Source: Pyrinomonadaceae bacterium
GTDB taxonomy: Bacteria > Acidobacteriota > Blastocatellia > Pyrinomonadales > Pyrinomonadaceae
Length of the DNA stretch: 64,000 bases
Assembly: GCA_035295985.1 (NCBI GenBank)
Contig: DATHBT010000004.1
Span: 4,170 to 68,169, forward strand
Direction: 5' to 3'
This document shows, one piece after another, positions 16,577 to 22,630 of this stretch. Every line of letters begins with the position of its first letter. The stretch's first letter is position 1. A program made the translations under genes and the position numbers. The notes below the pieces were generated by a model. That model was not told the origin of the DNA, did no database searches, and saw nothing but the letters and a program-made list of their open reading frames with translations.

Positions 16577-17995
16577 TCAACTTTCGGAATCTTTCAGCGC
16601 GGCGAGCAGCTTGTCGTGGATTCTGTCGAAGCCGCCGTTGGACATGACGGCGACGGTGTCGCCCGCGCGGAGCTGCGGCGCGAGGTGCGCGACGATTGCG
16701 TCCGCGCCGTCGAGGCAGAAGGCGGGCGTCTCGCCGCTCGCGGCAACGTCGCGGACGAGTTCGTCTGCGTCCAGGAGCCGCCCGTACTTGCTGCCCTTGT
16801 CGCGCTCGAAGACCTGCGCGACGACGACGTAGTCGGCCCGCCGCAAAGCCTCGACGTACTCTTCCTGGAAGACCGCGAGGCGCGAGGAGGCGGAGCGCGG
16901 CTCGAAGACGGCGACGAGTCGCCCCTGCCTGTACTTCTCGCGCAGCGCCTGCAAGGTCTCTCGCACGGCCGTCGGGTGGTGCGCGAAGTCGTCGATGACG
17001 GTCACGCCGTTCACAGTGCCGCGCACCTGCATCCGCCGCTGCACGCTCTGGAATGTCGCGAGCGCCTCTTCGATCGCGCTGTTCTCGACGCCCCACGCCG
17101 CGGCGGCGACGATGACGGCCAGACAGTTGCGCACGTTGAACTGGCCGATGAGCGGCGTCTCGAACTCGCCCCACACGCGCCCCTCGCGGAAGACTTTGAA
17201 TCGCGTGCGCTCGCCCGAAAAGTCTATGTCGCGCGCCTGCCACGCGGCGTCTTCCGACGTGCCGAAGGTCTCGACCCGCGTGTGGAGGCGCGCGCCCATC
17301 GCGCCCACGACTTCGCGCACGGCTGGGCTGCCCCATCCGGCGACGAGGCGGCCATTTCCCGGCACCAGATTGATCAGACGCTGGAAGGCCGTCTTGATCG
17401 CGTCGAGGTTCTGGTAGATGTCGGCGTGGTCGAACTCGATGTTGTTGACGATTGCGACCTCGGGCAGGTAGTGCATGAACTTCGGCCCCTTGTCGAAGAA
17501 GGCCGTGTCGTACTCGTCGCCCTCGATGATGAAGTGGTCGCTGTCCGTAACCCTGAAACTCTTGCCGAAGTTCTGCACGACGCCGCCGACGAGGAACGAG
17601 GGGTTGAGGCCGCCGACCTCCATCACCCACGTCGCGATGCTCGTCGCGGTGGTCTTGCCGTGCGTGCCGGCGACGACGAGCGAGCGCCGCCCGCGTATGA
17701 ACTCCTCCTTCACGACCTCGGCCTGCGAGCGGTACACGAGCCTCCGGTTCAGAGTCTCCTCGACCTCGGCGTTGCCGCGCGACAGTGCGTTGCCGATGAC
17801 GACGCAGTCGGGCGCGGGGGTAAGGTTGCCGGGCGCGTACCCCTGGGCGACCGGGATGCCCAGCCCTTCGAGCATCGTGGACATCGGCGGATAGACGTTC
17901 GCGTCCGACCCCGTCACCCTGTGCCCGCGCGCCTGCAACATCCCGGCCAAGCTAGCCATCGCCGTCCCGCAGATTCCGATCAGGTGGTAGTGCAT
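16577..17995 (-). CDS. mpl: UDP-N-acetylmuramate:L-alanyl-gamma-D-glutamyl-meso-diaminopimelate ligase
   Basis: MHYHLIGICGTAMASLAGMLQARGHRVTGSDANVYPPMSTMLEGLGIPV is the Mpl N-terminal signature. The Mur-ligase P-loop GTHGKTTT is present. Confidence 0.92.
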   Translation of the reverse strand: MHYHLIGICGTAMASLAGMLQARGHRVTGSDANVYPPMSTMLEGLGIPVAQGYAPGNLTPAPDCVVIGNALSRGNAEVEETLNRRLVYRSQAEVVKEEFIRGRRSLVVAGTHGKTTATSIATWVMEVGGLNPSFLVGGVVQNFGKSFRVTDSDHFIIEGDEYDTAFFDKGPKFMHYLPEVAIVNNIEFDHADIYQNLDAIKTAFQRLINLVPGNGRLVAGWGSPAVREVVGAMGARLHTRVETFGTSEDAAWQARDIDFSGERTRFKVFREGRVWGEFETPLIGQFNVRNCLAVIVAAAAWGVENSAIEEALATFQSVQRRMQVRGTVNGVTVIDDFAHHPTAVRETLQALREKYRQGRLVAVFEPRSASSRLAVFQEEYVEALRRADYVVVAQVFERDKGSKYGRLLDADELVRDVAASGETPAFCLDGADAIVAHLAPQLRAGDTVAVMSNGGFDRIHDKLLAALKDSES

Positions 17996-18107
17996 AAGAA
18001 GCTGTTGGCTATTAGCTGTTAGCTGTTAGCCGGAAGAAATTAGCTTTCAGTCTCCGCCCCGGTTGTAATTCTCGGTTTTGCTAACAGCTAACAGCTAATA
18101 GCTATTC
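17996..18107. repeat. heptamer-arm hairpin, TGTTAGC family, copy B
   Basis: AAGAAGC TGTTGGC TATTAGC TGTTAGC TGTTAGC (17996-18030) faces GCTAACA GCTAACA GCTAATA GCTATTC (18080-18107). Positions 18010-18030 pair perfectly (21 bp) with 18080-18100. The loop is 49 nt. The element fills the gap between the HK stop and the mpl start. Confidence 0.85.
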
Positions 18108-19448
18108 CTCACTCTTGTCTATGGGGATAGTGAAGGAGAAGGTCGAGCCTTTGCCCTCCTGCGAGTCAACCTTGATTTGGCCGCCGTGGAGTTCGACGAG
18201 CTGGCGGGTGATGTAGAGGCCGAGGCCCGTGCCCTTCTCGCTGCGGGTGGCGCGCGAGCGGGCCTGCTCGTACTTGTCGAAGAGGCGCGGGATGTCCGCG
18301 GCGGGGATGCCGACGCCGGTGTCGGAGACGGAGAAGCGCAAGTGTTCGCCCTCCTCCGCCGCGCGGAGGGTTACGCGCCCCTCGCGCGGCGTGAACTTCA
18401 GCGCGTTCGAGACGAGGTTGACGAGGACGCGCCGGAGCTTCTGGCGGTCGGCGCGCACCGCGGGCAGTTCGTCCGAGACGCCGAGTTCGAGCGCGATGCT
18501 TTTCTCCTCGGCGAGAGGGCGCATCGACTCGTAAACCTCGCCGGCCACGGCGGCCGGCCCGACCGAGCCGAGTTCCAGCTTGAGCGAGCCGGACTCGATC
18601 TTGGCCGAGTCCAGCAGGTCGTTGACCAGCTCGATGAGGTTGTGCGTGTTGCGCTCCATCATCGAGACCATGTTCTTCTGCTCCGGCGTCAGCTCGCCGA
18701 GCCGGCCCGACGAGAAGAAGCTGATGACGCCGCTGATGACCGTGAGCGGCGAGCGCAGGTCGTGCGTCGTGACGGCGAGGAACTCTTCCTTAAGTTCGCC
18801 CACCTCGCGCAGCTTCGCGTTGGCCTTTTCGAGTTCGCGGTTCGACCGCTCAAGCTCCTCGTTCAGCCGCTCCAACTCCTCGCGCTTCTCTTCGAGTTCG
18901 TTGAGGACGGCGACGAGGTCGCGGTTCTGCTGCGCCAGCTCCTCGACGGCCGACTCCTCGTCCGTCTCGGCGAACCGCTCGCGCAACTCCTCGACGCGCT
19001 CGCGCGCGCCCGCCGCGACCGCCGGCGGCAGCCACTTGACGACCGTGACGCGCGTGCCGCCGCCCTCGCGCGACTCGATCTGGAAGTCGTCCATCAGGCG
19101 GCGCGTGCCGGCGAGGCCGACGCCGAGGCCGTGCGGCGACTGGAAGCGCCCGGACATGATGTCGGCGACGGTGCGCTCGCCGATCCCCGGGCCGTCGTCG
19201 CGCGCGGTGATCTGCAGGCCCGTCGCGGCGGGGCCGAATTGCGCGACGGCCAGCGTGATCGCCCCGGAGCGCGCGTACTCGTAGATGTTGCGGGTGAGTT
19301 CGGAGACTGCCGTCGTGATCTTGATCTGCGTCGTCTGGTCGAAGCCCATCTCGCGCGCGAGCCGCCGCACGCGGTCGCGCACCTTGACGATGTCCGACTC
19401 GCGCCGCACGTAGATGTCGCCGAGCCTCGTTGTCTGGATAGCATCCAT
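18102..19448 (-). CDS. histidine kinase with an N-terminal RsbT/RsbW-like GHKL serine-kinase domain (RsbT-like::coiled-coil::HisKA::HATPase)
   Basis: ATG at 19448 is preferred; the ORF track uses TTG at 19460. The N-terminal 140 aa (MDAIQTTRLGDIYV...TTAVSELTRNIYEYA...DDGPGIG...GLGVGLAGTRRLMDDFQIESREGGGTRVTVVKWL) parallels RsbT. A Glu/Leu-rich coiled coil follows, then the H-box TTHDLRSPL and the G-boxes DTGVGI / GTGLGLYI. Confidence 0.85.
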   Translation of the reverse strand: MDAIQTTRLGDIYVRRESDIVKVRDRVRRLAREMGFDQTTQIKITTAVSELTRNIYEYARSGAITLAVAQFGPAATGLQITARDDGPGIGERTVADIMSGRFQSPHGLGVGLAGTRRLMDDFQIESREGGGTRVTVVKWLPPAVAAGARERVEELRERFAETDEESAVEELAQQNRDLVAVLNELEEKREELERLNEELERSNRELEKANAKLREVGELKEEFLAVTTHDLRSPLTVISGVISFFSSGRLGELTPEQKNMVSMMERNTHNLIELVNDLLDSAKIESGSLKLELGSVGPAAVAGEVYESMRPLAEEKSIALELGVSDELPAVRADRQKLRRVLVNLVSNALKFTPREGRVTLRAAEEGEHLRFSVSDTGVGIPAADIPRLFDKYEQARSRATRSEKGTGLGLYITRQLVELHGGQIKVDSQEGKGSTFSFTIPIDKSEE

Positions 19449-19463
19449 CGTTAAGAACAAAGC

Positions 19464-19584
19464 AGTCCGTCGTCCGTGGTCAGTTGTCCGTTGTATCCGC
19501 TTCGCCAGCTCGCCGCCCGCGGATTAAGGATCGAGTTACGCAAGCTCAAACGACTGACAACGGACTACGGACAACTGACGGCCT
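19464..19584. repeat. degenerate heptamer-arm inverted repeat (NGTCCGT / ACGGACN units)
   Basis: The left arm is AGTCCGT CGTCCGT GGTCAGT TGTCCGT TGTATCC (19464-19498). The right arm is ACGACTG ACAACGG ACTACGG ACAACTG ACGGCCT (19550-19584). The best stem is 19481-19494 with 19564-19577, 14 bp with 1 mismatch. Alternative registers are possible. Confidence 0.6.
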
Positions 19585-20636
19585 TACGGCCTTGCTACCA
19601 GGATCGTGGCGTCGTCCGAGCCGCGGCTGTAGTCGCGCAGGAGGACGCCGGCAATAAGTTGCGGACTCTTCTGGAGCAGCCCGGGGTAGTCGCCCATGTC
19701 CCAGGACGCGCTCAGGCCGTCGGAGGCGAGCACAACCGTCGCGCCCTCGCCCCAGCGCGACTGCCAGACGCGCAGCTTGCCGAGCCGCGCGCCGAGCGTG
19801 CCGTTGGCCGAGACGGGGCGGATCGGCTCAGGCGAGTTGAAGACGCGCACCTCGACGTTGCCCACGCCCGCATAGTAGAAAGCCTCGCGGCGCGTGTCCA
19901 CCACGCACGCGCCCATCACCGCGCCGCGGGTGGAGCGCAGCCGGTCGTGCGTCTTCAGGAAGAGGGTGTCGAGTCCCTCCCCCTGCCACTCCGAGAGCAC
20001 TTCGAGCGCGCCGCGCGCGGCCTCCTGCGCGCCGTGGCCGTGGCCGAGGCCGTCGATGACGGCGAGCAGGGTCGCGCCCGCGCGGCGGCGGACGAAGTAG
20101 GCGTCGCCGTTGGCGGTCTCGCCCGGTCGCGGCCGGCTCCACGCGCCGTAGCGGCGCGTGGTGGCCGCGTGGTGCTGCTCCAACCGCGCGGCCTCGACCC
20201 ACTTGCGGCAGAGCAGGGCCGTGCCGTGCGTCGTGCGGCGCAAGCCGGCGGAGACGCCGCGCGGGCGCGGCGCGGGCACGGACGAGTAGAAGTCGAACTC
20301 GTGCATCAGGCGGCGGATCGCGCCCAGGCCCGCGCCGAGGCTCCCGCCCGTGGTGACGCCGTCGCGCACGGCGCGGTCGATGTCGGGGATGCCGGGGCCT
20401 TTGTCGCAGTAGAAGAGTTCGAGGCCGGGTTCTGCGCCGAGCGGCGCGGCGAAGTGAACCCATCCGCCGCCCGTCGCGTAGCGGACGGCGTTGGTGCCGA
20501 TCTCCTGTACGACGATGTCGATCTCGGCCAGCTCGCGCTCGGTGAAGCCGACGCGCTTGGCGAAACTGTGCACGGCCCGCCGCGCCGCGCCCACCTGCGC
20601 GTCGTCCGCCACCTCCATCGACTGGATCGAACGCAT
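19584..20636 (-). CDS. ATP-binding SpoIIE/PP2C family protein phosphatase (RsbT/RsbW-like kinase domain fused to PP2C)
   Basis: The N-terminus VVQEIGTNAVRYA...CDKGPGIPDIDRAVRDGVTTGGSLGAGLGAIRRLMHEFDFYS is a GHKL serine-kinase-like domain. The C-terminal half, with NGDAYFV...LLAVIDGLGHGHGAQEAA...VLASDGL, is a PP2C/SpoIIE phosphatase. Confidence 0.85.
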   Translation of the reverse strand: MRSIQSMEVADDAQVGAARRAVHSFAKRVGFTERELAEIDIVVQEIGTNAVRYATGGGWVHFAAPLGAEPGLELFYCDKGPGIPDIDRAVRDGVTTGGSLGAGLGAIRRLMHEFDFYSSVPAPRPRGVSAGLRRTTHGTALLCRKWVEAARLEQHHAATTRRYGAWSRPRPGETANGDAYFVRRRAGATLLAVIDGLGHGHGAQEAARGALEVLSEWQGEGLDTLFLKTHDRLRSTRGAVMGACVVDTRREAFYYAGVGNVEVRVFNSPEPIRPVSANGTLGARLGKLRVWQSRWGEGATVVLASDGLSASWDMGDYPGLLQKSPQLIAGVLLRDYSRGSDDATILVARP

Positions 20637-20643
20637 GAAAGAA

Positions 20644-20722
20644 ATGATGAATGCGGAATGATGAATGATGAATCAAAAACGGCGGCGGATTTGATCTTCA
20701 TTCATCATTCCGCATTCATCAT
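20644..20722. repeat. heptamer-arm hairpin (ATGATGA / TCATCAT units), 28-bp stem
   Basis: ATGATGA ATGCGGA ATGATGA ATGATGA (20644-20671) pairs with TCTTCAT TCATCAT TCCGCAT TCATCAT (20695-20722) at 27 of 28 positions. The loop is 23 nt. The element fills the rsbT stop / PP2C-fusion start gap. Confidence 0.88.
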
Positions 20723-20736
20723 TCGTCGTTTGCTGC

Positions 20737-21135
20737 TCACAGCCACCGGATGATGGTGACGCGCGTGCCGCGGCCCACCTCCGACTCGATGCTGAACTCG
20801 TCAACGAGGCGCTTCGAGCCGGGCAGCCCCTTGCCGAGGCCGCGGTCGGTGGTGAAGCCGTCGCGCATGGCGGCGTCGATGTCCGGGATGCCGGGGCCTT
20901 TGTCCTCGAAGATGAGGCGGATGCCGGCGCGCCCCTGCGGCCCGCTCGTCGGCTGCGCGATCAGCCGGCCGCGCTTGGCGTACTTGAGGATGTTGCGCGC
21001 CAGCTCGGAGGTGACGGTGGCGAGCCGCGTCTGGTCGAGCAGGCGGAAGCCGACGGCCGCGGCCAGCGCGCGCACCTCGCTGCGCGCCGCCACCATGTCC
21101 TGCTCGGACTCAAGGGTGATTGACCGCGTGTCCAA
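20737..21135 (-). CDS. rsbT: anti-sigma regulatory factor-type serine/threonine kinase, RsbT-like
   Basis: 132 aa with a TTG start that overlaps rsbS by 26 nt. Motifs are SELARNILKYA, FEDKGPGIPDIDAAMRDGFTT and GLGKGLPGSKRLVDEFSIESEVGRGTRVTIIRW. Confidence 0.85.
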   Translation of the reverse strand: MDTRSITLESEQDMVAARSEVRALAAAVGFRLLDQTRLATVTSELARNILKYAKRGRLIAQPTSGPQGRAGIRLIFEDKGPGIPDIDAAMRDGFTTDRGLGKGLPGSKRLVDEFSIESEVGRGTRVTIIRWL

Positions 21136-21547
21136 AACCGCTTAACCCCCCCGGTGCGTCCTCTTCGTCGCAGTTCTCGTCGATGCCGAACTCGTCGCGC
21201 AGCAGCCTGATCCCTTCGTCCACGTTGAGCACGGTCGAGACGCCGTTCAACTCCAGCCCCAGCTCGACGAGCGTGATGGCGACGGCCGGCTGGATGCCGA
21301 CGACCACGGTGCGCGCGTCCATGATGCGCGCCATCGCGGCGATGTCGGAGAGCATCCGGCCGATGAAGGAGTCCACCATCTCCAAGAGCGAGATGTCGAT
21401 GAGCACGCCGCGCGCGCGGGTGCGCTCTAATTCGGAGAGGATACGCTCCTGCAGGTGGACTACGGTGTGATCGTCCATGTCCGTCTGGATCGGGACGATC
21501 AGCACGCGGCCCACCTTCAGGATCGGGATGCGCTGTAAGCCGTTCAT
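21110..21547 (-). CDS. rsbS: STAS-domain stressosome scaffold protein, RsbS-like
   Basis: 145 aa forming a single STAS domain: IPILKVGRVLIVPIQTDMDDHTVVHLQERILSELERTRARGVLIDISLLEMVDSFIGRMLSDIAAMARIMDARTVVVGIQPAVAITLVELGL. Confidence 0.85.
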   Translation of the reverse strand: MNGLQRIPILKVGRVLIVPIQTDMDDHTVVHLQERILSELERTRARGVLIDISLLEMVDSFIGRMLSDIAAMARIMDARTVVVGIQPAVAITLVELGLELNGVSTVLNVDEGIRLLRDEFGIDENCDEEDAPGGLSGFGHAVNHP

Positions 21548-21555
21548 AACTTTAA

Positions 21556-21648
21556 AAGAAGCTGTTAGCTGTTAGCGATTAGCTGTTAGCCAGAAAAAAG
21601 CATTCCTTGTTTTGCTAACAGCTAACGGCTGACGGCTAATGGCTTTCT
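21556..21648. repeat. heptamer-arm hairpin, TGTTAGC family, copy C
   Basis: AAGAAGC TGTTAGC TGTTAGC GATTAGC TGTTAGC (21556-21590) faces GCTAACA GCTAACG GCTGACG GCTAATG GCTTTCT (21614-21648). The arms pair in register with mismatches and G-U wobbles. The loop is 23 nt. The element lies between the rsbR stop and the rsbS start. Confidence 0.8.
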
Positions 21649-22630
21649 ACTTTCCGTTCTCCGGGCCGGGGGCCGGCGCGTGCGCCTCGATTGGCTTGAG
21701 GCCGTTGGCGGCCGTCCCGTTCAGGTGGCGGAGTTGCGCGAGCGTCTGGGCGGGGACGATGGCGCGGCCGACGAGTTCGAGCGCGAGGCGGATGCCGTCG
21801 GACATCTGCGCGCGCGTGGTGATCTGCGAGAGGTCGATGCCGAGCTGCACCATCGTCTGCGCGATGGCGGGGGAGACGCCGGTCAGCACGCAGCGCGCGC
21901 CCATCAGGCGGGCCGCCGTGACGGTCTTGATCAGGTGGTTGGCGACGAGCGTGTCCATCGTGCGGACGCCCGTGATGTCGAGGATCGCGACCGTCGATCC
22001 GGTCTCGACGATGCGCTGGAGCAGCGCCTCCATCATCAGTTGGGCGCGGCGCGAGTCGAGAGTGCCGATGATCGGGAGCGAGAGTATCTTGTCCCAGACC
22101 TTGATGACGGGGGTGGACAGCTCCATCATGTCGGCCCGCTGCTGGCGGATGGTCTCCTCGCGCGAGCGGATGTAGTTCTCGATCATGACGAGCGCCATCT
22201 TGTCGATCATGGTGGCGAGGTGGCCGAGCAGCGAGGCGAGGCGGAAGGAGTCTTCCGACTGGTACTCCTCGACGAGCATGGGCCGCACGGAGTTGCGCAG
22301 CGAGATGACGTAGGTCGCGTTCTCGACCGGCGTGTAGCCCTTCACGGCCCGCAGGTGCGAAATCTCGTTGAGGAAGCGGCGCAGCTCGTCGAAGGCCGGG
22401 TGCTCGAACGCCTCGCCGCCTGAATCGCGCACGGCCTCGGTGAACAGCTCCAGCAGGTTGCGCGACTGCTGGCGCAACTCCTTCTTCGAGATCAGCTCGT
22501 CGCGGAACTCGTCCGACTCAAGCCTGTCCTTGATCCAGAGGTTGAGGATTTCGTCGCGGCGCGCGGCCAGGAGTGTGCTGATGCGCTCCGCGTCCTGCTG
22601 GGCTTGCGTCGTTGCGCCGGTGTCTGCCAT
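21647..22630 (-). CDS. rsbR: RsbR-like stressosome sensor (N-terminal helical sensor domain plus C-terminal STAS)
   Basis: 327 aa. The C-terminal segment STPVIKVWDKILSLPIIGTLDSRRAQLMMEALLQRIVETGSTVAILDITGVRTMDTLVANHLIKTVTAARLMGARCVLTGVSPAIAQTMVQLGIDL is a typical RsbR STAS domain. A GAGGGG SD precedes the ATG at 22630. Confidence 0.82.
   Translation of the reverse strand: MADTGATTQAQQDAERISTLLAARRDEILNLWIKDRLESDEFRDELISKKELRQQSRNLLELFTEAVRDSGGEAFEHPAFDELRRFLNEISHLRAVKGYTPVENATYVISLRNSVRPMLVEEYQSEDSFRLASLLGHLATMIDKMALVMIENYIRSREETIRQQRADMMELSTPVIKVWDKILSLPIIGTLDSRRAQLMMEALLQRIVETGSTVAILDITGVRTMDTLVANHLIKTVTAARLMGARCVLTGVSPAIAQTMVQLGIDLSQITTRAQMSDGIRLALELVGRAIVPAQTLAQLRHLNGTAANGLKPIEAHAPAPGPENGK

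What the first reader, a model, noticed from the sequence alone, without database searches (positions are those of the whole stretch)
18102..22630. Stressosome-type RsbR-RsbS-RsbT module followed by two further RsbT-like kinase domains, one fused to PP2C and one to a histidine kinase, with no sigma-factor or receiver output in the window
Three consecutive proteins start with paralogous GHKL serine-kinase domains:
- Standalone RsbT: SELARNILKYA ... DKGPGIPDIDAAMRDGFTT.
- PP2C fusion: QEIGTNAVRYA ... DKGPGIPDIDRAVRDGVTT.
- HK fusion: SELTRNIYEYA ... DDGPGIGERTVADIMSG.

The HK therefore carries two ATPase domains, separated by a Glu/Leu-rich coiled coil and a HisKA domain. No RsbV/RsbW/SigB-type partner-switching genes and no response regulator are adjacent; the next gene is mpl.

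It is established that RsbRST modules are coupled to varied outputs, including two-component systems, in different phyla. What is not explained here is the role of three RsbT-type domains in series, or which substrate the HK phosphorylates. One inference is that each RsbT-like domain docks on the RsbR/RsbS STAS scaffold. Phosphatase and HK activities would then be released directly from the stressosome.
Basis: partly seen in the sequence, partly recalled or inferred. Interest (0 to 1): 0.62.

Follow-up and report, generated by a model that had tools for sequence, protein, structure and literature searches.

The report
Stressosome operon with three RsbT copies
This is a real stress-sensing (stressosome) operon in which the complex's small switch kinase RsbT occurs three times: once free, once fused to the reset phosphatase and once fused to a histidine kinase. 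It is a trimmed copy of a cassette found in hundreds of species across many phyla, which I found no experimental study of and which suggests a testable way for stressosomes to signal without sigma-B.

Summary
Five minus-strand genes encode:
- RsbR (RsbRD_N + STAS)
- RsbS (STAS)
- RsbT (132 aa)
- a GHKL + PP2C fusion (350 aa; the PP2C is most like Moorella MtX and B. subtilis RsbX)
- a GHKL + long helix + HisKA + HATPase_c histidine kinase (448 aa from the ATG at 19448)

The three N-terminal GHKL domains are true RsbT-type paralogues. Each keeps its ATP-binding motifs and the Arg that aligns with SpoIIAB Arg20.

The arrangement is not peculiar to this genome. A motif-anchored scan found at least 589 genomes with the GHKL-HK fusion. 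They include Acidobacteriota, Cyanobacteria such as Nostoc and Calothrix, Proteobacteria, Planctomycetota, Verrucomicrobiota, Nitrospira, Actinomycetota and Bacillota. In nearly all of the 80 loci examined the order is R-S-T-(GHKL-PP2C)-(GHKL-HK-REC[-REC])-(REC-HK).

The window carries a reduced form, with no receiver domain on the kinase and no second kinase gene. This form is conserved at 65-82% identity in about half the genera of its family and is followed by mpl in all 20 relatives examined.

No receiver domain lies anywhere on the 88-kb contig, so the kinase's substrate remains unidentified.

The parts
21647..22630 (-). rsbR: N-terminal RsbRD_N sensor domain plus C-terminal STAS. It has both conserved Thr phospho-acceptor motifs (MDTL, IAQT).
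   Evidence: Pfam. Best PDB sequence hits are V. vulnificus and Listeria RsbR, E 3e-36 to 9e-36. The two Thr positions are conserved in at least 95% of 69 cassette RsbR proteins.
21110..21547 (-). rsbS: single STAS scaffold protein with the conserved Ser (VDSFIGR). It overlaps rsbT by 26 nt.
   Evidence: Pfam. PDB sequence hits are Listeria RsbS 7e-34, B. subtilis RsbS 7e-30 and Moorella MtS 1e-24. The Ser is conserved in at least 95% of 61 cassette RsbS proteins.
20737..21135 (-). rsbT: free-standing 132-aa GHKL serine-kinase-type switch protein.
   Evidence: Pfam HATPase_c / HATPase_c_2. It sits in the 'T' clade of 43 cassette RsbT proteins, SH-aLRT 96.
20187..20636 (-). N-terminal RsbT-paralogous GHKL domain of the phosphatase fusion (aa 1-150). 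It carries a lineage-specific insertion of about 15 aa before the last strand.
   Evidence: HATPase_c_2 9e-13. R19, E45, N49, D78, G82 and the G2 glycines are invariant across phyla. Foldseek match to SpoIIAB 1th8, TM 0.79.
19590..20150 (-). RsbX/MtX-type PP2C phosphatase domain of the same protein (aa 163-349).
   Evidence: Sequence hits in PDB: 3zt9 at 3e-23 and 3w40 at 9e-12. Foldseek: 3zt9 with TM 0.92 and rmsd 1.4. The metal-binding Asp residues D178, D195, D306 and D341/D342 are invariant.
19032..19448 (-). N-terminal RsbT-paralogous GHKL domain of the histidine kinase (aa 1-139, counted from the ATG at 19448).
   Evidence: HATPase_c_2 1.5e-20. 42% identical to RsbT, E 1e-29. R24, E50, N54, D84, G86, G88, G107, G109 and G111 are invariant. 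It sits in the HK_N clade of 41 rows.
18783..19025 (-). Glu/Leu-rich signalling helix that joins the GHKL domain to the phospho-acceptor (DHp) helix (aa 142-222).
   Evidence: The AlphaFold2 model has one continuous helix over aa 152-246 that passes through His229. Conserved linker positions include E170, L192, N203, L206 and L213.
18105..18791 (-). HisKA (His229 in THDLRSPL) and catalytic HATPase_c domain. No receiver domain follows.
   Evidence: Pfam HisKA 8.5e-15 and HATPase_c 3e-48. Foldseek matches HK853, ZraS and WalK. H229 and the N, G1 and G2 boxes are invariant.
16577..17995 (-). mpl (murein tripeptide ligase), a conserved same-strand neighbour directly downstream of the kinase.
   Evidence: TIGR01081, 467 bits. 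It follows the kinase in 20 of 20 related genomes from different genera. No terminator-like site precedes it on this strand.

Best explanation
**What is shown**
- The locus encodes a canonical stressosome core: RsbR, RsbS and the RsbT kinase.
- It also encodes an RsbX-type reset phosphatase and a class-I histidine kinase.
- Each of these two enzymes carries at its N-terminus its own ancient paralogue of RsbT.
- The locus is a reduced member of a cassette conserved across many phyla. In the full cassette the kinase is a hybrid with one or two receiver domains and is followed by a REC-HK gene.

**What is inferred**
- The fused RsbT-type domains act as the input modules of the two enzymes. They bind the unphosphorylated STAS domains of the RsbR/RsbS scaffold in the way RsbT does.
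- The phosphatase is thereby held next to its substrates.
- The kinase's conformation, transmitted through the long helix into the DHp domain, depends on whether its RsbT-like head is docked or free.
- Stress-dependent phosphorylation of RsbS-Ser and RsbR-Thr would release the heads and switch the kinase. The PP2C would then reset the system.
- In this lineage the kinase must pass phosphate to an unlinked response regulator, which was not identified.
For: - **Domain architecture:**
- **Stressosome core identity:**. The phospho-acceptor Ser/Thr residues are conserved across cassettes.
- **Paralogue history:** the three GHKL classes form one RsbT-type clade, and each class is (nearly) monophyletic across phyla. 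They are therefore old paralogues inherited together.
- **Intact GHKL motifs:** all three classes keep the N-box Glu/Asn, the G1 and G2 boxes and the Arg aligned with SpoIIAB Arg20.
- **No RsbU_N in the cassette:** the known RsbT receiver domain was not matched in the Pfam scans of cassette kinases. An acidobacterial cluster with a plain single-domain RsbX has an RsbU_N-HK instead (L046). The two solutions look like alternatives.
- **The fusion can be the only kinase:** clusters L044 and L045 lack a free RsbT, so the GHKL-PP2C fusion there is the only RsbT-type kinase beside the STAS genes.
- **Structure models:** the HK model has a continuous helix from the GHKL domain through His229, pLDDT 83. 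The phosphatase fusion models as one compact unit, pTM 0.89.
- **Cassette conservation:** 589 confirmed loci, with the same gene order in nearly all of the 80 loci examined.
- **The reduced form is conserved:** it occurs in 31 of 61 family genomes at 65-82% identity, with R-S-T-X-HK-mpl in 20 of 20 loci.
Against: - No protein-protein interaction was computed or measured.
- The model does not explain why a free RsbT is retained in almost every cassette.
- Intact ATP-binding motifs are also expected if the fused domains are autonomous kinases with other targets.
- SpoIIAB Arg20 as a partner-contact residue comes from my memory of the SpoIIAB literature, not from a structure of RsbT on a stressosome.
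- The output of the kinase in this genome is unknown.
- I could not read Pané-Farré et al. 2005 or Quin et al. 2012. Either paper may already describe these fusions.
Confidence: 0.5

Rival explanations
1. Signalling in trans through RsbT. As in B. subtilis, only free RsbT docks on the stressosome. After release it binds the fused RsbT-like domains of the kinase and the phosphatase, for example as a GHKL heterodimer comparable with SpoIIAB/RsbW homodimers. In this model the fused domains are the functional replacement of RsbU_N.
For: - A free RsbT is kept in almost all cassettes.
- The fused domains occupy the position that RsbU_N holds in the alternative RsbU_N-HK clusters (L046).
- From general knowledge, GHKL anti-sigma kinases dimerise.
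- The long helix would transmit partner binding in the way described for RsbT-RsbU (PMC12143880).
Against: - A pure receiver domain would not need the invariant ATP-binding residues or the conserved Arg aligned with SpoIIAB Arg20 in all three classes.
- In clusters without a free RsbT (L044, L045) the fusion must itself act on STAS.
Confidence: 0.2
2. The fused GHKL domains are autonomous Ser/Thr kinases or ATP sensors. They act in cis or on non-STAS targets, for example by phosphorylating the PP2C, the kinase or a receiver domain. They do not engage the stressosome.
For: - The catalytic motifs are intact.
- The phosphatase fusion models as a compact two-domain unit, pTM 0.89, which would allow intramolecular regulation.
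- Heinz et al. 2022 (PMC9237108) proposed RsbT-dependent phosphorylation of downstream sensor kinases.
Against: - The fusions are strictly linked to rsbR-rsbS-rsbT in nearly all of the 80 loci examined.
- The domains belong to the RsbT clade, whose known substrates are STAS Ser/Thr residues.
- The conserved acceptor residues sit in RsbR and RsbS.
Confidence: 0.12
3. In this lineage the operon is a decaying remnant. After losing the receiver domains and the second kinase, the short HK has no signalling role.
For: - The kinase lacks the REC domain(s), and the sixth gene of the full cassette is absent from the locus.
- No close match to the sixth gene's receiver domain turned up elsewhere in the 95%-complete genome.
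- No receiver lies on the contig.
Against: - The short form is conserved at 65-82% identity in 31 of 61 family genomes, with open frames of about 450 aa, and more than 120 database clusters share its architecture.
- His229 and all the kinase boxes are invariant.
- No stop codons interrupt the matches.
Confidence: 0.05

Closest known systems
Bacillus subtilis / Listeria monocytogenes stressosome pathway (RsbR-RsbS-RsbT, RsbX reset phosphatase, RsbU-RsbV-RsbW-SigB output)
   Same: - RsbR, RsbS and RsbT are homologous, with E-values down to 7e-34 against the solved Listeria and Bacillus proteins.
- The gene order R-S-T is the same, and the Ser/Thr acceptor residues are conserved.
- The phosphatase domain is of the RsbX type.
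   Different: - There is no RsbU, RsbV, RsbW or SigB at the locus, and no RsbU_N domain.
- The phosphatase and the output enzyme each carry an RsbT paralogue.
- The output is a histidine kinase.
Moorella thermoacetica MtR-MtS-MtT-MtX-MtG module (Quin et al. 2012, PDB 3zt9, 2vy9)
   Same: - It is the closest solved phosphatase: 3zt9, E 3e-23, TM 0.92.
- MtS resembles this RsbS, E 1e-24.
- It is a stressosome without sigma-B that controls a signalling enzyme directly.
   Different: - Its output is a diguanylate cyclase with an RsbU_N domain that RsbT binds (as cited in PMC12143880), not a GHKL-fused histidine kinase.
- I could not verify whether native MtX has an N-terminal GHKL domain. The crystallised chain is 192-193 aa, and the paper was not held.
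Vibrio vulnificus rsbRSTX-D1-D2 locus (Heinz et al. 2022, PMC9237108; PMC10436020)
   Same: - An RSTX module is co-transcribed with a two-component output and no sigma factor.
- How RsbT reaches the kinase is an open question there. No RsbU_N domain was found and no RsbT-D1 interaction was detected.
   Different: - RsbR has a globin sensor.
- RsbX is described as single-domain.
- D1 is described with a PAS domain, not an RsbT-like head.
- A cognate D2 regulator is adjacent.
RsbU_N-histidine kinase outputs of stressosome operons (Heinz et al. 2022; Bradshaw laboratory, eLife 2025, PMC12143880)
   Same: - A histidine kinase lies directly downstream of RSTX, with a helical linker from the N-terminal input domain to the DHp.
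- An example exists in this phylum (L046).
   Different: - The input domain there is RsbU_N, the known RsbT-binding domain. Here it is a paralogue of RsbT itself.
- The accompanying phosphatase there is single-domain.
Mycobacterium tuberculosis Rv1364c (PAS-RsbU-RsbW-STAS fusion, PDB 3ke6)
   Same: A PP2C phosphatase and a GHKL serine kinase of a partner-switching system sit in one polypeptide (Foldseek hit on the PP2C part).
   Different: - The domain order is reversed (PP2C then kinase).
- From what I know of Rv1364c, its kinase is RsbW-type, not RsbT-type.
- As far as I know it is not linked to an RsbR/RsbS stressosome core; I did not check its genomic context.

Membership tests
Stressosome RsbR-RsbS-RsbT module | RsbR: an N-terminal sensor domain plus a C-terminal STAS with conserved Thr acceptors | tested here: met
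   RsbRD_N + STAS. Near full-length match to Listeria RsbR, E 9e-36. VDT and IAQT motifs are present and conserved.
Stressosome RsbR-RsbS-RsbT module | RsbS: a single STAS domain with the conserved Ser acceptor | tested here: met
   STAS only. Listeria and Bacillus RsbS, E 7e-34 and 7e-30. VDSF is conserved.
Stressosome RsbR-RsbS-RsbT module | RsbT: a small GHKL serine kinase encoded directly after rsbS | tested here: met
   132 aa, HATPase_c / HATPase_c_2. It overlaps rsbS by 26 nt. It sits in the RsbT clade.
Stressosome RsbR-RsbS-RsbT module | Assembly of RsbR and RsbS into a pseudo-icosahedral complex that sequesters RsbT | not testable with these tools
   Needs biochemistry or cryo-EM.
RsbX-type feedback phosphatase | A PP2C fold with the metal-binding Asp residues, closest to RsbX/MtX | tested here: met
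   3zt9 at 3e-23 and 3w40 at 9e-12. TM 0.92 and 0.78. D178, D195, D306 and D341/D342 are invariant.
RsbX-type feedback phosphatase | A single-domain protein of about 200 aa | tested here: not met
   350 aa with an N-terminal RsbT-type GHKL domain.
Class I (HisKA) sensor histidine kinase of a two-component system | An H-box His in a DHp helix, plus a catalytic domain with N, G1 and G2 boxes | tested here: met
   HisKA 8.5e-15 and HATPase_c 3e-48. H229 and the boxes are invariant. The fold matches HK853 and ZraS.
Class I (HisKA) sensor histidine kinase of a two-component system | A cognate receiver, either fused or encoded nearby | tested here: not met
   There is no REC ORF on the 88-kb contig. 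Cassette relatives have fused REC domains.
SigB-type partner-switching output (RsbU-RsbV-RsbW-sigma) | An RsbU_N-PP2C, an RsbV STAS, an RsbW kinase and a sigma factor at the locus | tested here: not met
   None is in the window. The only RsbW/RsbV-like pair lies on contig C209, with no sigma gene recognised among the neighbouring ORFs.
Conserved six-gene cassette R-S-T-(GHKL-PP2C)-(GHKL-HK-REC)-(REC-HK) | The first five genes in this order, with RsbT paralogues on the phosphatase and the kinase | tested here: met
   The window's three GHKL domains each sit in the matching paralogue class, next to the G271 orthologues.
Conserved six-gene cassette R-S-T-(GHKL-PP2C)-(GHKL-HK-REC)-(REC-HK) | Receiver domain(s) on the kinase and a following REC-HK gene | tested here: not met
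   The kinase ends after HATPase_c and mpl follows. The main-group linker motif ELE[DE]TNRGV is also absent.

The most novel reading that the evidence does not exclude
The stressosome in this cassette is not a store for one diffusible switch kinase. It is a scaffold on which three specialised RsbT paralogues compete. The histidine kinase and the reset phosphatase plug into the STAS lattice through their own RsbT heads, so stress is converted directly into His-Asp signalling without any RsbU_N-type adaptor. The three paralogues might each serve one of the three conserved acceptor sites (the RsbS Ser and the two RsbR Thr). That would answer the open question of how sigma-B-less stressosomes reach two-component outputs.
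Probability: 0.3. Interest if true: 0.72.

Novelty: new variant of a known kind. Interest (0 to 1): 0.5.

Why it matters
Stressosomes occur in many phyla that lack sigma-B. How released RsbT reaches two-component or c-di-GMP outputs is unresolved. Heinz et al. 2022 found no RsbU_N domain and no RsbT-kinase interaction in Vibrio vulnificus.

This cassette replaces the adaptor with a covalently attached RsbT paralogue. That gives a concrete, testable coupling mechanism.

It is present in cultured bacteria, including Nostoc, Calothrix, Dulcicalothrix desertica PCC 7102, Pseudoduganella aquatica and Alsobacter soli.

The window's copy adds a natural minimal version: five genes, no receiver and no second kinase. 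It is conserved across a family-level clade of Acidobacteriota, so it could be the simplest system to reconstitute.

The copy itself is an ordinary member of its clade. The interest lies in the cassette, not in this locus.

Tried and rejected
- **Key papers not available.** Pané-Farré et al. 2005 and Quin et al. 2012 are not held. I cannot exclude that the GHKL fusions are already described there. Full-text searches for RsbT-like, RsbW-like or HATPase_c_2 fusions with stressosomes found nothing relevant.
- **First locus scan failed.** A 20-sequence alignment was too diverse for the search for related loci. A narrower 8-sequence alignment worked. It was anchored on the linker motif ELE[DE]TNRGV, so it samples the main subgroup, not the window's own subgroup.
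- **REC-HATPase_c_2 protein (contig C45) as the kinase's target.** It occurs in 57 of 61 family genomes against 31 of 61 for the cassette. There is no specific co-occurrence.
- **Own-genome receivers most like the cassette receivers.** The top hit, C187:7014-9197, is itself a PAS-HK-REC-REC hybrid kinase, and no orthologue of the sixth gene was found. This is not evidence for a partner.
- **The 153-aa gene between the kinase and mpl in G271.** It is an HXXEE membrane protein, not a receiver.
- **A zinc-ribbon-REC protein (C199:6303-6941).** Its orthologue lies within 2 kb of the cassette in only 2 of 20 relatives. I keep it as a weak lead only.
- **Phyletic profiling for a regulator.** I judged it uninformative, because cassette presence tracks one subclade of the family.
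- **Terminator and promoter scan.** There is no terminator-like site inside the operon, and the one promoter-like match is at chance level.

Full report
**1. Observation**

The region holds five consecutive minus-strand ORFs followed by mpl. Pfam and NCBIfam scans give:
- RsbR, 21647-22630: RsbRD_N 2.5e-21 and STAS 3e-14.
- RsbS, 21110-21547: STAS 5e-12.
- RsbT, 20737-21135, 132 aa: HATPase_c 1e-11 and HATPase_c_2 1e-6.
- A 350-aa protein 'X', 19584-20636: HATPase_c_2 at aa 10-116 (9e-13) plus a PP2C domain.
- A histidine kinase: HATPase_c_2 at aa 23-142 (1.5e-20), weak coiled-coil-type matches over aa 153-240, HisKA (8.5e-15) and HATPase_c (3e-48).
- mpl: TIGR01081, 467 bits, above its cut-off.

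The database copy of the kinase and its homologues are 448 aa. The start is therefore most likely the ATG at 19448, not the TTG at 19460.

The three N-terminal GHKL domains are 31-42% identical pairwise, with BLASTP E-values from 1e-29 to 7e-12. They are only about 25% identical to the kinase's own catalytic ATPase domain.

**2. Identity of the parts**

- RsbS matches the solved stressosome RsbS proteins of Listeria (7e-34), B. subtilis (7e-30), Moorella (1e-24) and V. vulnificus.
- RsbR matches Listeria RsbR over nearly its full length (9e-36) and the V. vulnificus RsbR STAS domain (3e-36).
- The PP2C domain of X is closest to Moorella MtX (3zt9, 3e-23) and B. subtilis RsbX (3w40, 9e-12) by sequence.
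- It is also closest by fold: TM 0.92 and rmsd 1.4 for 3zt9, and TM 0.78 for 3w40. The N-terminal half of X matches SpoIIAB (TM 0.79).
- The kinase core matches HK853, ZraS and WalK.

Catalytic residues are intact throughout.
- In alignments that span many phyla, the kinase keeps R24, E50, N54, D84, G86, G88, G107, G109 and G111 in the N-terminal domain. It also keeps H229 and the N, G1 and G2 boxes in the core.
- X keeps R19, E45, N49, D78, G82 and the G2 glycines, plus the PP2C metal ligands D178, D195, D306 and D341/D342.
- The acceptor residues of the scaffold are conserved in at least 95% of 61 and 69 cassettes: Ser in RsbS VDSF, and Thr in RsbR VDTL and IAQT.

**3. Wider context: a conserved cassette**

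The N-terminal 150 aa of the kinase find 5193 clusters at 50% identity with E <= 0.001, and 1962 with E <= 1e-10.
- I scanned 57 of the hits, including all those of 350 aa or more. Of these, 38 carry HisKA and 20 carry a receiver domain.
- A large subgroup shares a strongly conserved linker motif, ELE[DE]TNRGVvALYAEL.

Going by the record titles, the best 80 loci come from:
- Acidobacteriota
- Cyanobacteria (Nostoc, Calothrix, Cylindrospermum sp. NIES-4074, Dulcicalothrix desertica PCC 7102, Phormidium tenue)
- alpha-, beta-, gamma- and delta-Proteobacteria (Pseudoduganella aquatica, Alsobacter soli)
- Planctomycetota, Verrucomicrobiota, Nitrospira, Actinomycetota and Bacillota
- Rokubacteria, Kapaibacteria and Omnitrophota

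I annotated them with profiles built here. Nearly every locus with enough flank reads:

RsbR - RsbS - RsbT - (GHKL-PP2C, about 335 aa) - (GHKL-HisKA-HATPase_c-REC[-REC], 580-750 aa) - (REC-...-HisKA-HATPase_c[-REC])

Pfam confirmed this on examples, with GAF or PAS in the sixth protein.

In a sample of 401 genomes of the window's phylum, 33 have a match to the kinase's N-terminal GHKL domain. Regions fetched around 20 of these matches show several distant families with the same cassette.

Two alternative wirings also occur in the phylum:
- R-S-T, a single-domain PP2C, then an RsbU_N-HisKA-HATPase_c kinase and a receiver (L046).
- STAS genes followed by a GHKL-PP2C fusion and a kinase, with no free RsbT (L044, L045).

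**4. The window's version is a reduced, stable form**

- The kinase stops after its catalytic domain.
- There is no sixth gene, and the main-group linker motif is absent.
- In a genus-even sample of the window's family, 31 of 61 genomes have this short kinase at 65-82% identity, with open frames mostly of about 450 aa and no internal stops.
- In 20 of 20 fetched neighbourhoods from different genera, the short kinase is followed by mpl on the same strand; where the contig reaches far enough upstream, the genes before it are R-S-T-X (also G271).
- Cassette presence follows one subclade of the family. The genomes that have it are the ones whose unrelated REC-GHKL protein is most similar to the window's copy.

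It is therefore vertically inherited and under constraint. It is not a recent decay product.

**5. The three RsbT-type domains**

I built a tree of 137 GHKL domains, with the genome's RsbW-like kinase as outgroup.
- All free RsbT proteins, all phosphatase heads and all kinase heads fall in one clade on a long branch (SH-aLRT 99).
- Inside that clade the cassette RsbT proteins form one clade (43 rows, support 96).
- The kinase heads form one clade (41 rows, support 69).
- The phosphatase heads form one clade of 43. The two fusions from clusters that lack a free RsbT fall outside it.
- RsbT proteins from clusters with a single-domain RsbX fall among these groups.

The three domains are thus ancient paralogues of RsbT proper that travel together. 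They are not recent duplications, and they are not RsbW-like.

**6. Mechanism**

Shown:
- A canonical stressosome core.
- An active-looking RsbX-type phosphatase and an active-looking class-I kinase.
- Each enzyme is headed by an RsbT paralogue with nucleotide-binding residues intact.
- The kinase model has one continuous helix (aa 152-246) running from just after the GHKL domain through His229, pLDDT 83.
- The phosphatase fusion is a compact unit, pTM 0.89.
- The Arg that aligns with SpoIIAB Arg20 is invariant in all three classes (alignment). I recall Arg20 from the SpoIIAB literature as a key contact for its STAS partner.

Inferred (confidence about 0.5):
- The heads are the input modules and bind the STAS lattice as RsbT does.
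- This tethers the phosphatase to its substrates and sets the kinase's signalling state through the helix.
- Phosphorylation of the acceptor Ser/Thr releases the heads, and the PP2C resets the system.

Points in favour:
- RsbU_N, the known RsbT receiver, was not matched in the Pfam scans of cassette kinases. It appears on the kinase of the one examined cluster whose phosphatase has no head and is followed by a kinase (L046).
- Some clusters lack a free RsbT altogether, so the fusion there must serve as the STAS kinase.

Points against:
- No interaction was tested.
- The model does not explain why a free RsbT is retained in almost every cassette.

Rival models:
- Released RsbT binds the heads in trans (about 0.2).
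- The heads are autonomous kinases or ATP sensors acting elsewhere (about 0.12).
- This lineage's copy is a remnant (about 0.05, contradicted by its conservation).

**7. The kinase's substrate**

- No receiver domain is encoded anywhere on the 87,975-bp contig. The same three profiles detect 71 receiver-containing ORFs elsewhere in the genome.
- The genome's only RsbW/RsbV-like pair lies on contig C209, with no sigma gene recognised among the neighbouring ORFs. A REC-HATPase_c_2 protein lies on C45.
- That REC-HATPase_c_2 protein is nearly universal in the family, whether or not the cassette is present. It therefore gains no support as a partner.
- A zinc-ribbon-REC protein (C199:6303-6941) has orthologues within 2 kb of the cassette in 2 of 20 relatives. 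This is a weak lead only.

The substrate remains unidentified.

**8. Comparison with the literature**

- RSTX modules with non-sigma outputs, including two-component systems, are established (Pané-Farré et al. 2005, cited in PMC9237108).
- Heinz et al. 2022 (PMC9237108) list eleven downstream architectures for globin-type RsbR clusters.
  - They describe the phosphatase as single-domain.
  - They found RsbU_N on only some outputs.
  - They failed to detect an RsbT-D1 interaction in V. vulnificus, and D1 has a PAS domain.
- The eLife 2025 study (PMC12143880) explains RsbT-RsbU_N signalling through a coiled-coil linker. It notes RsbU_N-kinases in stressosome operons.
- I found no open-access text that describes RsbT paralogues fused to the phosphatase and the kinase. 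The two most relevant papers were not available.
- Earlier notes from this scan on other genomes describe the same cassette and reach the same general picture. They are not independent evidence, but my own survey agrees with them.

**9. Verdict**

It is a new variant of a known kind: a stressosome wired to His-Asp signalling through fused RsbT paralogues. This locus is an ordinary member of a reduced, mpl-linked sub-form conserved in one acidobacterial family clade. The interest lies in the cassette's mechanism, which is testable, and not in this copy.

Noticed in passing
window 21559-21645, 20643-20723, 19471-19580, 18000-18103: Each of the four large intercistronic gaps of the operon (R/S, T/X, X/HK, HK/mpl) holds a hairpin built from heptamer repeats (TGTTAGC, ATGATGA and GTCCGT-type units). 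Arms are 23-39 nt and 77-100% complementary. In most cassette relatives from other phyla the genes abut or overlap instead.
   Followed up: partly
window 16577-17995 and loci L131-L150: mpl lies directly downstream of the short kinase on the same strand in 20 of 20 related genomes from different genera. No terminator-like site lies between them in the window. Whether it is co-transcribed or functionally linked to peptidoglycan recycling is unknown.
   Followed up: partly
L046:4829-5998 (minus strand) and neighbours: Another acidobacterial genome has R-S-T, a single-domain PP2C, an RsbU_N-HisKA-HATPase_c kinase and a single receiver. This is the wiring described for Proteobacteria, and it is an alternative to the RsbT-fused kinase within the same phylum.
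   Followed up: partly
L044:893-1948 and L045:5148-6323: These clusters have STAS genes followed by a GHKL-PP2C fusion and a kinase, but no free RsbT. The fusion is the only RsbT-type kinase there, and in the tree these two heads fall outside the main phosphatase-head clade.
   Followed up: partly
cassette kinases in L036, L037 and L051-L130 (for example L037:7561-9342): A near-invariant linker motif, ELE[DE]TNRGVvALYAEL, lies between the RsbT-like head and the H-box in the main subgroup of fused kinases across phyla. The window's kinase and its family have a different helix there (NEELERSNRELEKANAKLRE).
   Followed up: partly
own genome, contig C209:23998-25016 (outside the window): This is the genome's only RsbW-like kinase with an adjacent RsbV-like STAS protein. 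I recognised no sigma factor among the neighbouring ORFs by eye; they were not scanned against domain libraries.
   Followed up: no
own genome, contig C45:19970-20950 (outside the window): A receiver domain is fused to an RsbW-like HATPase_c_2 domain. The protein is present in 57 of 61 genomes of the family, so it is a core signalling protein of the lineage with unknown partners.
   Followed up: partly
window 20230-20280 (aa about 120-137 of the phosphatase fusion): A lineage-specific insertion of about 15 residues (SSVPAPRPRGVSAGLRR) sits before the last strand of the GHKL head. It has low model confidence (pLDDT below 50 at aa 131-133) and is absent from the cassette consensus.
   Followed up: no
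own genome, contig C199:6303-6941 (outside the window): An orphan zinc-ribbon plus receiver protein. Its orthologues (62-64% identity) lie within 2 kb of the cassette in two related genomes (L134:4727-5203, L135:3066-3530).
   Followed up: partly
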